DNA of 60,000 nt from assembly GCA_038087875.1 (NCBI GenBank), contig CM075989.1:18912001-18972000 (forward strand), read 5' to 3'. Position numbers and translations under genes: made by a program. The stretch's first letter is position 1. Each line of letters opens with the position of its first letter. Below are positions 53,901 through 57,111 of this stretch, one piece after another. The notes under the pieces were generated by a model that had not been told where the DNA came from, made no database searches, and saw only the letters and a list, made by a program, of their open reading frames with translations. The stretch is from Malacoraja senta (Eukaryota).

Positions 53901-54367
53901 AGGAATTGTTGAATTCAGTAGTAAATCATGAAGGCAGTACATTCATTTTTTTTGGATATCTCAAGCAAGAATCCATTCCTCATCCCCAATTGCCCTTGAA
54001 GTGCACACCTTTCTGAGGAACCCCCTCCTCCCCCCCCCCAACATCGTCCCCTTTCTCCCCCACCCTTCCCTTTCTTCTAGTACCCATCCACTGACACTAT
54101 CCTGCACACTAGGGACAATTTACAATTACCCTACAAACCTGTACGTATTTGGAATGTGGGAGGCAACCGGGAACACCCAGAGAAAACCCACACAGTCACA
54201 GAGAGAACGTACAAACTCTGTATAAGCTCGTAGTCAGGATCGAACACGGGTCTCCGGCGCTGTAAAGCAGCAACTCTACTGCTGCGCCACCGTGCCGGCC
54301 ATACAATATAATTCAGATTCCCACGGCAGTCCTGAACTCAGATCTCTAAACTATTAATCCTGCACTT

Positions 54368-54421
54368 GGGGTGGGAGATTGCAACCATCACGTGGTCCGC
54401 CCTGTTTCGACAAATGCAATC
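54368..54421 (+). ncRNA. Predicted minimal HDV-like self-cleaving ribozyme
   Basis: Manual fold: P1 GGGGTGG/CCGCCCT with G1-U wobble, P2 GATTGCA/TGCAATC, P3 ACC/GGT, 7-nt L3 ATCACGT, P1.1 C54389-G54404, vestigial P4 TTTCGA, J4/2 CAAA with catalytic-position C54411. Confidence 0.8.
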
Positions 54422-54508
54422 AACCCGGTGTGCACAATCAAATAAGATCAAATAGAACAAGTTGTCCTACAACTTTAGGCTGTGCACGCCATAGACAAGA
54501 AGAAGAAG
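54368..54508 (+). mobile_element. 141-nt non-autonomous retroelement with ribozyme head and (GAA)n tail
   Basis: Flanked by a perfect 12-bp direct repeat aatcctgcactt (54356-54367, 54509-54520). Ends in catagacaagaagaagaag. Confidence 0.85.
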
Positions 54509-57111
54509 AATCCTGCACTTTGACTGCTGTGCCATCACCATGCACCTCCGTATTCATCACTTCCCACAACTTTCACCTCCGGGCAGATCAGGAACAATTA
54601 ACAAGTTGAACCACTATACAATTATATCAATTAGTCTTTCCTGATATATCCATCCTGTACTCTCTGTTCCCTTCACTCCTCTTCATTCTCTGCAACCTAA
54701 AACATGTTAAAACATAGAGTACAGCACAGGCCGCTCGGCCAACGATGTCAGTGTCGAACATGATGCCACGATAAACTAATCTCCTCTGCCTGCATGTGAT
54801 CCATATCCCTGCATTCCCTACACAACCATGTGCATATTTAAAAGCCTCTTAAATGCCACTATCTACCACCCCTGATAGCGCATTCCAGGCATCCACCACC
54901 CTCTGTGTACAAAAAACTGCCCCCCACATCTTTAACTTTTGCCCCTCTCATCTTAAAGCTATGCCCTACAATCTTTGACATTTCCACTGAGAAATAGGTT
55001 CTGACTACCAATGTTTGATTTCTAATTTTTCTCAGCTCTGATTAAGAAAAATGTCACCCACCCAAAACATCAATCCTGTTTCTCTCTCAACAGATGCTGC
55101 CCAACCTAATGTGTGCTTCTGACAAAATGTGTAGGATCTGCAGATTCTCGTTTAAACCAAAGACAGACACAAAAAGCTGGAGGAACTCGTCAGGTCAGGC
55201 ACCATCTCTGGAGGAAAGGAACAGGTGACGTTTCGGCTTGAGACCCTTCTTCAGACTCAGGGGAAAGGGAAATTAGTTTCACTGTTGTCCTGTTCAGTTT
55301 CAGTGCCTTTTTAACTCGTTAACACCTATCCCACAGCCAACAAAGGACCATTGTGAGCTCCATCTTTCCTTGATTATCATTGCTTTTATGCATATCTTCC
55401 ATTCATTTGTCTTATATCTCTCATTTCCCTTTCCCCGTGACTCACAGTCTGAAGAAGGGTCTTGACCCGAAATGTCACCTATTCCTTTTCTCCAGAGATG
55501 CTGCCTGGCCTGCTGAGTTACTCCAGCATTTTGCGTCTGCCGAATGTGTGCTTCTGGCATTTTCTGGGGTTTATTTGAGTCACATAATAAACATAGGTTT
55601 AATACTGTGCCCAAACTACTGTAGGTTCCAGGTATGCCGTGCTACCAGTCTAAAGGCAATAGAATCATTAATTCTATTTACAGAACTTTAAAATGCCTGT
55701 TGCCTGTTGCCACAGTGAGGCCTGTGACAAGTTGCCTTGCAACAATCGATAGACTCTAGCTGTGCAAAGCAACAGGACAGATGGCTGTGCAATGTTGTCA
55801 GGCCGGATCACGTAACTTGAAGCCATGGACCTCCAGCCTTGAGGTTTTCAGCACTTTGGTGCTGAAATCATATCAATGCAGCAATGGATAAATATGCAAG
55901 GCTTTCTCTTTCTTTAACCCATGGGTTAAGGCATGGGTTAAAGAAAGATAAAAAGGAAAAGAGTGGTAACAGTCAGACTAAAGTTAAAAGCATTTATGGT
56001 TCAGCTGCTGGTGGGGTGGCGATAGTGGTTAAGGTAAGGTGAAGAACTATTGAAAATTGCCAAGCTAATTCAAAAGACAGCTTACTAAACTGTGAGGCTG
56101 AAAAATTTCCAGAGGAGAATAAAAACCCACCCAGATCAATACTCAAGTTTACTCAAGTCTCATAATCCAAGTACATTCAGAAAAGATCTGGATAAATTCC
56201 GGAAAAAGGTAGCACTAGGTACAATTATTGTTAAAACAAAATTGAAATATTCAACAACTTTGGAAAGAAAGAATTTGGGCATTTAGTACCTTTGAATTCA
56301 GCAAACTAGACTATAGGTACATTGAATATATTGTCTACGTTTTTTCTCGCATTGTCACTTAAATCTGCAGCCATTGCCTTAAATCAAAGAGTCTTGCAGT
56401 CTTTTTGGACTAAGACATCAACCAAGAAATAGCAAAATCTGCACAGTAACAAATGCCATATCCCCAAACAAGATATTAAAAATATATTAATACTACATAG
56501 CTGTACATCCGTCTCAGCTTCCTGGCAACAGCTTCCTGGCATGCCATTAGTTGCTTTATGGTATCCATTCTATTCTCTGCCCTCACAATCCGGAACACTC
56601 ACTGAATGTTCCCGCAATAGCTTTAATCCTCTGTATGAAACGCTTTAGAATTAAATACAGGAAGCCCATGGAAAATTGGTATTAAAATTCCGCTGAAGAG
56701 TTTAAATATTTCAAATTATTTACGGCAAAAGACTGATTGAGGTAGCAATTTAGTTCATGATAGATGTACCCCACTTGAATTCATGCAAGAATTTAAGGCC
56801 TATGGTTTAATATTAGCAATACAAATAGGTTTTACAATAGAGAAACAAGGAACTGAGGATGTGGGATTATAAGAAAAGACACAAAGTTCTGCAATAACTC
56901 AGTGGGTCAGGCAGCATCTGTGGAGAAGATGAATAGGTGACGTTTCAGGTTGGGACCCTTCTGGCTGTGGTGGGGGAGGGGGATGAGGGGTGGAAAACTG
57001 GAAGGGAGAAGGGGCAGGACAAAACCTGGAAACCGAAACAAACTCAAAACCTCACCTATCCATGGTCTCCAAAGAAAAGTTTCTTTCGAAAAGTTAGTTA
57101 AGTAACAGTGA

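What the first reader, a model, noticed from the sequence alone, without database searches (positions are those of the whole stretch)
54356..54520. 141-nt retroelement headed by a minimal HDV-like self-cleaving ribozyme
Seen in sequence: a perfect 12-bp TSD (aatcctgcactt) brackets 54368-54508, and the first 54 nt satisfy the nested double-pseudoknot topology in the correct order. The parts are P1 5' 54368-54374 GGGGTGG; J1/2 GA; P2 5' 54377-54383 GATTGCA; P3 ACC / L3 ATCACGT / GGT; P1 3' 54397-54403 CCGCCCT (G1-U wobble); single-pair P1.1 C54389-G54404; P4 reduced to T-TTCG-A; J4/2 C-A-A-A with C54411 at the HDV C75 position; P2 3' 54415-54421 TGCAATC (7/7). The predicted scissile bond (5' of G54368) is exactly the TSD boundary. 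Established: HDV-like ribozymes process the 5' ends of R2, RTE and Ingi/L1Tc-type retrotransposons. Inference: this is a tiny non-coding mobile ribozyme with no Pol III A/B boxes, which cuts itself out of read-through transcripts and is retrotransposed in trans. It may be an undescribed elasmobranch family. The first L3 base is A where U is canonical, so this copy may be impaired.
Basis: partly seen in the sequence, partly recalled or inferred. Interest (0 to 1): 0.92.

Follow-up and report, generated by a model that had tools for sequence, protein, structure and literature searches.

The report
Ribozyme-headed short retroelement from an RTE-like LINE
The 141-base insert is one copy of a family of several thousand small non-coding mobile elements, made from the two ends of a LINE retrotransposon of the same genome, and both begin with a very small HDV-like self-cleaving ribozyme motif that would cut the RNA exactly at the element's first base.

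Summary
A perfect 12-bp duplication brackets 54368-54508. The first 54 nt have the HDV-like double-pseudoknot order.

- **Family:** over 1,790 first-look candidates. All 40 scored are 96-100% identical; 39 start at base 1, one at base 2. One subfamily alone has 1,811 exact pattern matches.
- **Ends:** 47 of 50 copies keep the GGGGTGG head. TSDs are mostly 11-12 bp, and 30 of 40 abut G1.
- **Ribozyme fit:** the consensus meets the published "loose P4" descriptor. The window copy fails only at the first L3 base (A; T in 43 of 50 copies). Chance rate is 3e-8 to 1e-7 per nt.
- **Origin:** a LINE copy carries the same ribozyme about 53 nt upstream of its EN-RT ORF. LINE 3' ends carry the element's last 42 nt, stop codon included. 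The element is an internally deleted LINE derivative.
- **Recency:** a contig from another run has the empty site.

Self-cleavage is untested, Rfam models miss it, and no raw RNA reads were available. I rate it a new member of a known kind.

The parts
54356..54367 (+). 5' copy of the 12-bp target-site duplication (AATCCTGCACTT)
   Evidence: A contig in run X19 joins 54355 to 54509, with 12 letters fitting either side. This is the empty site carrying one copy of the duplication.
54368..54421 (+). 54-nt P4-less HDV-like ribozyme motif. The predicted cleavage is 5' of G54368.
   Evidence: Only descriptor hit in the window. Chance rate about 1e-7 per nt. The family consensus passes the strict published descriptor. 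No Rfam hit.
54368..54374 (+). P1 5' strand, GGGGTGG
   Evidence: Pairs with 54397-54403 in 7 pairs, including G1.U and U5.G wobbles. In one subfamily position 32 is A, which gives a U5-A pair (hand tally tested).
54377..54383 (+). P2 5' strand, GATTGCA. The two bases before it (54375-54376, GA) are J1/2.
   Evidence: 7 of 7 pairs with 54415-54421. P2 and P3 also appear in the nested MFE fold.
54384..54396 (+). P3 (ACC/GGT) around L3 (ATCACGT). A54387 replaces the family's T.
   Evidence: T in 43 of 50 copies, A in 4, G in 1, C in 1, deleted in 1. The consensus ACC-TTCACGT-GGT is identical to one sea-urchin ribozyme family in Fig S15 of PMC4870747's supplement.
54397..54405 (+). P1 3' strand CCGCCCT, followed by GT. 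G54404 would pair with C54389 as P1.1.
   Evidence: Meets the 'RN' element of the descriptor.
54406..54410 (+). 5-nt linker (TTCGA) where P4 would be
   Evidence: The G54409>A variant reaches 10% or more in laid contigs.
54411..54414 (+). J4/2, CAAA. C54411 sits at the catalytic-C position.
   Evidence: Meets CNRA. The second base is A, G or T in different subfamilies.
54415..54421 (+). P2 3' strand, TGCAATC
54422..54466 (+). Variable body. It derives in part from the LINE 5' UTR.
   Evidence: Subfamilies A-D differ here by substitutions, indels and a replaced segment. Subfamily D copy L089 matches the LINE 5' end at positions 8-96, 95.5% identity.
54467..54508 (+). LINE-derived 3' tail. It holds the LINE's last codons, the stop codon TAG, a UTR of about 20 nt, and (AAG)4 at 54497-54508.
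   Evidence: 92-100% identical to the 3' ends of LINE copies L084, L085 and L086. ORF end read.
54509..54520 (+). 3' copy of the 12-bp target-site duplication

Best explanation
The insert is a dead daughter copy of a high-copy, non-coding, internally deleted derivative of an RTE-like LINE in the same genome. It resembles a SIDE or SINE.

The LINE and its derivative share two ends. The 5' end is a 54-nt HDV-like ribozyme without P4, followed by part of the 5' UTR. The 3' end is the last 42 nt: final codons, stop codon, a very short UTR and an (AAG)n tail.

Proposed working:
- A source copy has no promoter of its own and is transcribed as part of a longer host or read-through transcript.
- The ribozyme folds and cuts 5' of G1, which sets the RNA's exact 5' end.
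- The LINE's reverse transcriptase recognises the shared 3' tail and copies the RNA into a new site by target-primed reverse transcription, leaving an 11-12-bp duplication.

Shown here: the family, its uniform ends and TSDs, the descriptor fit of the consensus, the chance rate, identity with the LINE at both ends, and the empty-site allele.

Inferred: self-cleavage, co-transcription, and mobilisation in trans.

The window copy has A instead of U at the first L3 base. It probably cannot cleave itself.
For: **Family and ends**
- 1,790 first-look candidates. All 40 scored are 96-100% identical; 36 span 1-141 and 39 start at base 1, one at base 2.
- 1,811 exact matches for the CTAA subfamily pattern, against 0 for the control.
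- 47 of 50 copies keep the head. 40 have an exact TSD of 6 bp or more, mode 11-12 bp, and 30 of those 40 abut G1.
- Contigs of three runs lose similarity at 54367/54368 and continue into diverse flanks.

**Ribozyme motif**
- The published descriptor, read, is met by the consensus. It passes strictly in 19 of 30 top copies, and in 22 of 30 if the first L3 base is freed.
- It hits nothing else in the window.
- In 274 kb of other loci it hits only the Rfam-supported control, L081/L082.
- Chance rate is 2.8e-8 per nt strict.
- The changes that distinguish subfamilies fall where the descriptor allows them: J1/2 position 8, J4/2 second base (A, G or T), and position 32, which turns U5.G into U5-A. 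A hand tally rows gives 45/9/5/35, Fisher p = 3e-12.
- P3-L3-P3' equals that of sea-urchin ribozymes the RNArobo supplement calls confirmed.

**LINE origin**
- L087 carries ribozyme positions 9-54, then 5' UTR, then an ATG at 681. The ORF is collinear with residues 22-603 of a 1019-aa EN-RT homologue. Pfam finds Exo_endo_phos_2 and RVT_1.
- L088 is a second copy of the 5' UTR plus ORF start.
- L084, L085 and L086 carry the tail with the ORF stop inside it.
- D-subfamily copy L089 matches LINE 5' at 8-96 and LINE 3' at 95-120, with a 2-nt overlap.

**No Pol III head:**

**Recency:** empty-site contig in X19.
Against: - No cleavage assay exists and no raw RNA reads were available. All 24 runs are stored as contigs, so no RNA 5' end was seen.
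- Rfam's HDV-type models give no hit even at E<=10 on 91 nt.
- There is no P4 helix.
- Copies are too alike for true two-sided covariation. The only pair change is one-sided and sits at a CpG.
- In the sample chosen by its 3' half, only 1 of 20 copies still passes the descriptor, so most copies are decayed.
- In runs guessed to be RNA, contigs run across the 5' boundary into flanks. This could be uncleaved RNA or DNA.
- The LINE 5' head was seen in one copy only, and that copy lacks the first 8 nt.
- No intact LINE ORF was found. The longest open frame is 449 aa among 150 scored hits.
- The RTE-clade label rests on architecture and recall, not on a tree.
Confidence: 0.78

Rival explanations
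1. The head does fold like an HDV ribozyme or descends from one, but the element's 5' end is set by transcription initiation. The head would then act as an internal promoter or as a protein or translation element. This is how the first 77 nt of L1Tc and NARTc act, as both promoter and ribozyme.
For: Uniform 5' ends and TSDs abutting G1 fit a fixed start site as well as a cleavage site. Dual promoter and ribozyme use of one 77-nt head is in print (PMC3383444, abstract seen). In the LINE the motif lies about 53 nt before the ATG, a place where a role in translation has been proposed for other elements (PMC6765202 passages).
Against: No Pol III boxes or tRNA. The catalytic-core letters (L3 TTCACGT, G after P1', CNRA) are kept in all four subfamily consensus sequences, while the body changes. 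A promoter alone would not require that.
Confidence: 0.12
2. An ordinary LINE-tailed SINE whose first 54 nt fit the HDV-like descriptor by chance. No ribozyme was ever involved.
For: No Rfam hit. No P4. No covariation. At the shuffle rate, about a hundred strict chance hits would be expected genome-wide: 2.8e-8 per nt over 3.9 Gb counting both strands.
Against: The hit is at one pre-defined position, base 1 of a TSD-bounded family, so the chance is about 3e-8 to 1e-7. The P3-L3-P3' 13-mer equals that of a published ribozyme family. Non-LTR elements are where such ribozymes are known to sit.
Confidence: 0.04
3. A 5'-truncated LINE fragment, or a tRNA/7SL/5S-derived Pol III SINE.
For: The last 42 nt are LINE sequence.
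Against: All 20 further hits to the 3' half also contain head sequence (18 begin at positions 1-5, the other two at 16 and 34), and none continues into LINE sequence. No ORF lies inside the 141 nt. ARAGORN finds nothing. The best A and B box matches have 3 mismatches each, which is the commonest value for box A and close to it for box B in random 141-nt pieces. No small-RNA family hit in Rfam.
Confidence: 0.01

Closest known systems
R2 SIDEs (short internally deleted elements) of Drosophila; PMC3414825, abstract read
   Same: A non-coding element made of a LINE's 5' HDV-like ribozyme joined to a LINE 3' end, propagated by the LINE's machinery.
   Different: R2 SIDEs are rare, sit in rDNA units and are co-transcribed with 28S rRNA. 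This family is dispersed over all large contigs with variable TSDs and thousands of copies. Its ribozyme is 54 nt and lacks P4, whereas the R2 ribozyme lies within about the first 184 nt of R2 (PMC6765202 passage).
RTE and baggins LINEs with 5' HDV-like ribozymes (Ruminski et al. 2011). The paper is not held. It is known here only through PMC6765202 passages and reference lists.
   Same: A promoter-less LINE whose 5' end is an HDV-like ribozyme, thought to be released from read-through transcripts. The same review says some SINEs also use HDV-like ribozymes.
   Different: I could not check whether this lineage or this P4-less form is among the published cases. The RTE assignment rests on a single EN-RT ORF, homologues of about 1000 aa on contigs of about 3.2-3.4 kb, and a near-absent 3' UTR. 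No phylogeny was run.
L1Tc / NARTc Pr77 of Trypanosoma cruzi; PMC3383444 and PMC4035085, abstracts seen
   Same: An autonomous LINE and its truncated non-autonomous partner share a 5' head that is an HDV-like ribozyme.
   Different: Pr77 is 77 nt and also acts as an internal promoter. The host is a protist with polycistronic transcription. NARTc is a truncated version of L1Tc per the PMC5814959 abstract.
Sea-urchin HDV-like ribozyme family; rows 8, 39, 46 of Fig S15, Additional file 1 of PMC4870747
   Same: Identical P3-L3-P3' (ACC-TTCACGT-GGT) and the same CCCTGT after P1. P1 and P2 have different letters in the two families.
   Different: The sea-urchin form has a longer P4 region, about 18 nt. 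Whether the likeness is descent or convergence is open. L3 TTCACGT is also the commonest L3 in that figure, in 13 of 15 rows by my reading.
Minimal HDV-like ribozymes of the human microbiome (Riccitelli et al. 2014). Seen only as a title in reference lists. Details are recalled.
   Same: A very small double pseudoknot of about 50 nt. PMC4870747's Background says about 50 nt suffice.
   Different: Those come from metagenomes of microbes. This one heads a vertebrate-type genome's retroelement family.
Hammerhead-bearing SINE-like elements of Schistosoma, and retrozymes; PMC6765202 passages, PMC7761336 passages
   Same: Small non-autonomous retroelements that carry a self-cleaving ribozyme.
   Different: A different ribozyme class. 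Those occur as tandem or circular-RNA forms. Here there is a single ribozyme per dispersed copy, and it cuts only the 5' end.

Membership tests
HDV-like self-cleaving ribozyme (published loose-P4 descriptor, PMC4870747 Add. file 1, Figs S11/S27) | P1 of 5-8 pairs whose first pair is R:Y, with its 3' strand directly after P3' | tested here: met
   7 pairs, with G1.U as the first. Kept in the consensus of all subfamilies seen.
HDV-like self-cleaving ribozyme (published loose-P4 descriptor, PMC4870747 Add. file 1, Figs S11/S27) | P2 of 6-8 pairs that closes the second pseudoknot, and P3 of 3 Watson-Crick pairs | tested here: met
   P2 is 7 of 7 and P3 is ACC/GGT.
HDV-like self-cleaving ribozyme (published loose-P4 descriptor, PMC4870747 Add. 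file 1, Figs S11/S27) | L3 = TYYHCG(N)Y | tested here: met
   The family consensus TTCACGT meets it (T in 43 of 50 copies at the first base). The window copy has ATCACGT and does not meet it.
HDV-like self-cleaving ribozyme (published loose-P4 descriptor, PMC4870747 Add. file 1, Figs S11/S27) | R N after P1' (P1.1), then J4/2 = CNRA directly before P2' | tested here: met
   GT, then CAAA in the window copy. Other subfamilies have CGAA or CTAA.
HDV-like self-cleaving ribozyme (stem-P4 descriptor, Fig S13, and Rfam models) | A P4 helix of 5 or more pairs, or a score against RF00094, RF02682 and related covariance models | tested here: not met
   Only 5 nt lie between P1.1 and J4/2. No Rfam match at E<=10 on 3 kb or on 91 nt. 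The same RF00094 model does find a classic-size candidate elsewhere in this genome.
HDV-like self-cleaving ribozyme | Site-specific self-cleavage 5' of G1 that depends on the J4/2 cytosine and a divalent metal | not testable with these tools
All available runs are contigs, with no raw reads.
SIDE-type non-autonomous LINE derivative | 5' end and 3' end both identical to those of an autonomous LINE of the same genome, with the coding part deleted | tested here: met
   L089 positions 8-96 match LINE 5' (L087) at 95.5%. Positions 95-120 match LINE 3' (L085) at 100%. The LINE is collinear with an EN-RT homologue. Caveat: only one LINE copy shows the ribozyme, and it lacks the first 8 nt.
RTE clade of non-LTR retrotransposons | A single ORF of about 1000 aa with AP endonuclease and RT, a unit of about 3.3 kb, a very short 3' UTR with a short-repeat tail, and clade placement by RT phylogeny | tested here: inconclusive
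   EN and RT domains found. Homologues of 800-1140 aa, mostly on contigs of 3.0-3.5 kb. The stop codon lies about 20 nt before (AAG)n. No tree was built, and the clade's defining list is recalled.
tRNA-derived Pol III SINE | A tRNA-like head with A and B boxes | tested here: not met
   ARAGORN finds 0 genes. The best box matches have 3 mismatches each, as in random pieces. The box consensus sequences are recalled.

The most novel reading that the evidence does not exclude
A vertebrate-type genome holds a recently active SINE-like family of several thousand copies with no Pol III head. Its only 5' function is a natural P4-less HDV-like ribozyme of 54 nt, inherited from an RTE-like LINE. If so, dependence on a ribozyme and read-through transcription, not on an internal promoter, can sustain SINE-scale amplification. 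The family would also provide one of the smallest natural eukaryotic HDV-like ribozymes, with thousands of natural variants to study.
Probability: 0.45. Interest if true: 0.62.

Novelty: new member of a known kind. Interest (0 to 1): 0.52.

Why it matters
The work turns a single-copy guess into a defined system. There is a LINE and its internally deleted parasite, and both begin with the same 54-nt ribozyme motif.

- For ribozyme research, it offers a natural P4-less HDV-like core whose consensus is easy to test. Subfamilies vary exactly at the descriptor's free positions, and decayed copies act as natural mutants. Examples are the window's U-to-A change at the first L3 base and the loss of the catalytic C by CpG decay in CGAA copies.
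- For mobile-element biology, it is a case where the SIDE route, known from rare rDNA-bound R2 derivatives, has reached thousands of dispersed copies and left an insertion absent from another sample.
- For annotation, covariance-model scans miss it. Descriptor searches anchored on repeat 5' ends would be needed to find its like.

Tried and rejected
- **Rfam scans** of 3 kb and of 91 nt around the site found no HDV, CPEB3 or drz family.
- **MFE folding** of the 141 nt gives z = -1.4. It cannot show pseudoknots.
- **LINE hunt, step 1.** The top 30 RVT_1 loci form one unrelated LINE family with no likeness to the element.
- **LINE hunt, step 2.** Of 20 further hits to the 3' half, 18 begin at positions 1-5, one at 16 and one at 34, and none continues into LINE sequence.
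- **LINE hunt, step 3.** The ribozyme's last 22 nt followed by anything other than AACC gave 3 matches, none a LINE. This was uninformative, because the LINE also continues with AACC.
- **A 'longer element'** seen three times is a subfamily-B copy with another repeat nested inside it.
- **Intact LINE.** None of 150 scored C-terminal hits has an open frame longer than 449 aa, and none of the same-family RT N-terminal hits exceeds 442 aa. L085 and L084 are 5'-truncated copies. L086 is interrupted by a Tc1-like insertion.
- **RNA evidence.** All 24 runs are stored as contigs, so starts, strand and level cannot be read. Contigs of runs only guessed to be RNA cross the 5' boundary. One contig of a metatranscriptome run covers 54398-54495. 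I draw nothing about expression or cleavage from these.
- **Variant table gaps.** The table lacks the A54387>T difference that the genome copies show, so its absences prove nothing.
- **Earlier notes of this scan:** nothing found by sequence, place or words.
- **Papers not held:** Ruminski 2011 (PMC3308841) and Webb & Luptak 2011 (PMC3256349). Prior description of this family there, or in Repbase/Dfam, could not be checked.
- **Literature searches** for HDV-like ribozymes with SINE, non-autonomous, RTE or shark terms listed no paper on such a family in fishes.
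Full report
**Observation**

AATCCTGCACTT occurs at 54356-54367 and again at 54509-54520. 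The 141 nt between them end in (AAG)4.

- P1 GGGGTGG / CCGCCCT
- J1/2 GA
- P2 GATTGCA / TGCAATC
- P3 ACC / GGT around L3 ATCACGT
- G after P1'
- five linker bases
- J4/2 CAAA

The claimed 'P4' is at most one U-A pair, so I call it absent.

**Is it more than chance?**

I first wrote a descriptor from memory. It hit the window on both strands only at 54368. In 454 kb of fetched loci it hit only family copies and one positive control.

I then took the published descriptors from the supplement of PMC4870747 (Figs S11, S13, S20, S27) and re-implemented the loose-P4 form.

- In the window it gives no strict hit. It gives one hit, at 54368, when the first L3 base is freed.
- In 3,000 dinucleotide shuffles of the window (360 Mb) there were 10 strict and 42 relaxed start sites. 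That is 2.8e-8 and 1.2e-7 per nt, or 0.003 and 0.014 expected per window.
- Such a rate would still give on the order of a hundred chance hits in a 1.9-Gb genome, so a lone hit would mean little. The weight comes from its position at base 1 of a TSD-bounded repeat, and from the family.

**The family**

- The window's own genome (1.94 Gb) returned 1,790 first-look candidates. All 40 scored are 96-100% identical; 36 span 1-141 and the other four lack one or two end bases.
- In the 30 loci fetched, 29 start GGGGTGGG and one starts CGGG. Each has its own flanks.
- All 20 further places, found with the 3' half alone, also carry head sequence: 18 from positions 1-5, and one each from positions 16 and 34. 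One search shows the latter has the head plus an internal deletion.
- A pattern for the subfamily with J4/2 CTAA matched 1,811 places, against 0 for the reversed control.
- Of the 50 aligned copies, 47 keep a recognisable head. 40 of those have an exact TSD of 6 bp or more, mostly 11-12 bp. In 30 of those 40 the TSD abuts G1, and the rest lie within 1-3 nt.
- Contigs from three other runs lose similarity at 54367/54368 and at 54505-54510 and run on into diverse sequence.
- The consensus has T at the first L3 base: T in 43 of 50 copies, A in 4, G in 1, C in 1, deleted in 1.
  - Three of the four A copies come from the sample ranked by likeness to the window copy, which biases it towards A.
  - In the other sample A occurs in 1 of 20.
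  - A is therefore most simply a private change.
- In the antigenomic HDV ribozyme the equivalent U23A change was inactive in all four combinations tested (PMC3386971, section 5). The window copy is probably dead as a ribozyme.

**Subfamilies**

Pattern searches print the matched letters, and these show at least four forms, A to D. They differ by substitutions, indels and a replaced segment between positions 55 and about 99. The 54-nt head and the last 40 nt or so stay the same.

Within the head I saw three recurrent differences:

- position 8 in J1/2 (G or A);
- the second base of J4/2 (A, G or T; also seen as variants of 10% or more in laid contigs);
- position 32 (G or A), which pairs with U5 and so gives U.G or U-A.

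Positions 8 and 32 are linked. My hand tally of 94 usable rows out of the 100 printed gives G8/A32 45, G8/G32 9, A8/A32 5 and A8/G32 35, with Fisher p = 3e-12. I dropped 6 rows because the head was deleted or unreadable, or because position 8 was neither G nor A.

All three differences lie where the descriptor is free or the pair is kept. This is consistent with constraint on source copies, but it is weak evidence. The pair change is one-sided and sits at a CpG. There is no two-sided covariation, because the copies are too alike.

Individual copies decay fast. 19 of 30 top copies pass the strict descriptor (22 of 30 relaxed), but only 1 of 20 copies chosen by their 3' half does. In CGAA copies the catalytic C lies in a CpG, and it is T in L061, L063 and L066.

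**Comparison with known ribozymes**

Rfam's covariance models do not see the motif. Such models penalise a missing P4 and cannot score pseudoknots. The same RF00094 model does find one classic-size candidate elsewhere in this genome, at 43.8 bits and in a single copy. My descriptor code also finds that candidate.

Fig S15 of the RNArobo supplement lists 15 sea-urchin ribozymes that it calls confirmed. One family there has the same ACC-TTCACGT-GGT and the same CCCTGT, with different P1 and P2 letters. The paper's Background says about 50 nt suffice for a minimal active double pseudoknot.

**Origin and partner**

A pattern anchored on the tail, with 'not' codes upstream, gave 249 matches. Among them were four rows with a different upstream sequence. 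One of these places, L084, shows a LINE ORF end whose stop codon TAG lies inside the element's tail.

- The last 42 nt of the element are 92-100% identical to the 3' ends of three LINE copies, L084, L085 and L086.
- The C-terminal 168 aa have 4,607 first-look candidates.
- The protein has RVT_1 and Exo_endo_phos_2 domains.
- Its homologues are mostly about 1000 aa, on contigs of 3.0-3.5 kb.

Together with the near-absent 3' UTR and trinucleotide tail, this architecture is what I recall for the RTE clade. No tree was made.

One LINE copy that reaches upstream, L087, carries four parts in order: positions 9-54 of the ribozyme, then 42 nt identical to the body of subfamily D, then 10 nt, then an ATG. 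From that ATG the sequence is collinear with residues 22-603 of the 1019-aa homologue P0001.

A second copy, on the minus strand of L088, shows the same 5' UTR running into the ORF. It is cut off at position 61 or so.

A fetched D copy, L089, matches LINE 5' over its positions 8-96 (95.5%) and LINE 3' over 95-120 (100%), with a 2-nt overlap.

The short element is therefore an internal-deletion derivative of a LINE that itself begins with this ribozyme, about 53 nt before its start codon.

**Recency**

In run X19 a single-copy-depth contig joins 54355 to 54509, with 12 letters fitting both sides. This is the empty site. Its flanks differ from the window at two places. The insertion is thus absent in another individual or close relative.

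LINE fragments are 91-94% alike, and no intact ORF was seen. What supplies reverse transcriptase today is open.

**How it most likely works**

- *Shown:* the anatomy, the uniform ends, the TSDs, the shared LINE ends, the lack of a Pol III head, and the empty site.
- *Inferred from established knowledge* of R2, RTE and L1Tc elements, as summarised in PMC6765202 (passages):
  - transcription as part of longer transcripts;
  - self-cleavage 5' of G1;
  - recognition of the shared 3' tail by the LINE enzyme;
  - target-primed reverse transcription.
- *Not shown:* any cleavage and any RNA end. All runs were contigs.

**Comparison and novelty**

The closest systems are:

- R2 SIDEs (PMC3414825 abstract);
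- L1Tc/NARTc (abstracts);
- RTE and baggins LINEs with 5' HDV-like ribozymes.

The 2019 review also says that some non-autonomous SINEs use HDV-like ribozymes. It adds that hundreds of intergenic copies with conserved downstream and varying upstream sequence were seen in the first survey. The kind is therefore known.

What is new here, as far as my searches reach (key papers not held; no Repbase or Dfam), is this particular family, its P4-less 54-nt head, its scale, and the documented LINE-to-SIDE derivation. I rate it a new member of a known kind, with interest about 0.5.

Noticed in passing
L081:1501-1583 (-) = G000:C1:320228970-320229052: A separate, classic-size HDV-like ribozyme candidate with a full P4. 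RF00094 scores 43.8 bits (gathering score 50), E = 4e-5 in a 501-nt scan. It also passes the published descriptor. It is single-copy in the genome, with no ORF of 80 aa or more downstream.
   Followed up: partly
L083:141-408; also G000:C1:314628362-314628447 and G000:C1:224601341-224601426: Three copies of the short element carry another abundant repeat (starting ...GAAGGAACTGCAGATGCTGG) nested at the same internal position. In L083 it has its own duplication. This is either an insertion hot spot or a composite that has itself been copied.
   Followed up: partly
Base -1 of 47 family copies (L001-L030, L061-L080): The base just 5' of G1 is T in 25, C in 13, G in 5 and A in 4 copies. Pyrimidine in 38 of 47 gives p = 5e-6 against window composition. 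It reflects the target site. New copies also mostly get the U or C that an HDV study found best at -1 (PMC1874588, abstract only).
   Followed up: partly
Element positions about 80-106, subfamilies A and D (printed rows; L089): The small hairpin just before the LINE-derived tail differs between subfamilies (GTTGT/ACAAC against TGTAG/CTACA), but both use the same 3' strand CTACAAC. This may be a kept stem-loop for recognition by the reverse transcriptase.
   Followed up: no
L086:1330-2186 (-): A Tc1/mariner-like transposase reading frame (…FEWPSQSPDLNPIEH…) interrupts this LINE copy.
   Followed up: no
window 54200-54300: Just upstream of the insert lies a stretch that by eye resembles the head of a tRNA-related SINE on the minus strand. 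ARAGORN calls no tRNA there.
   Followed up: no
L031-L060: RVT_1 has 159,857 first-look candidates in this genome. The 30 best loci all belong to one LINE family unrelated to the element studied.
   Followed up: partly
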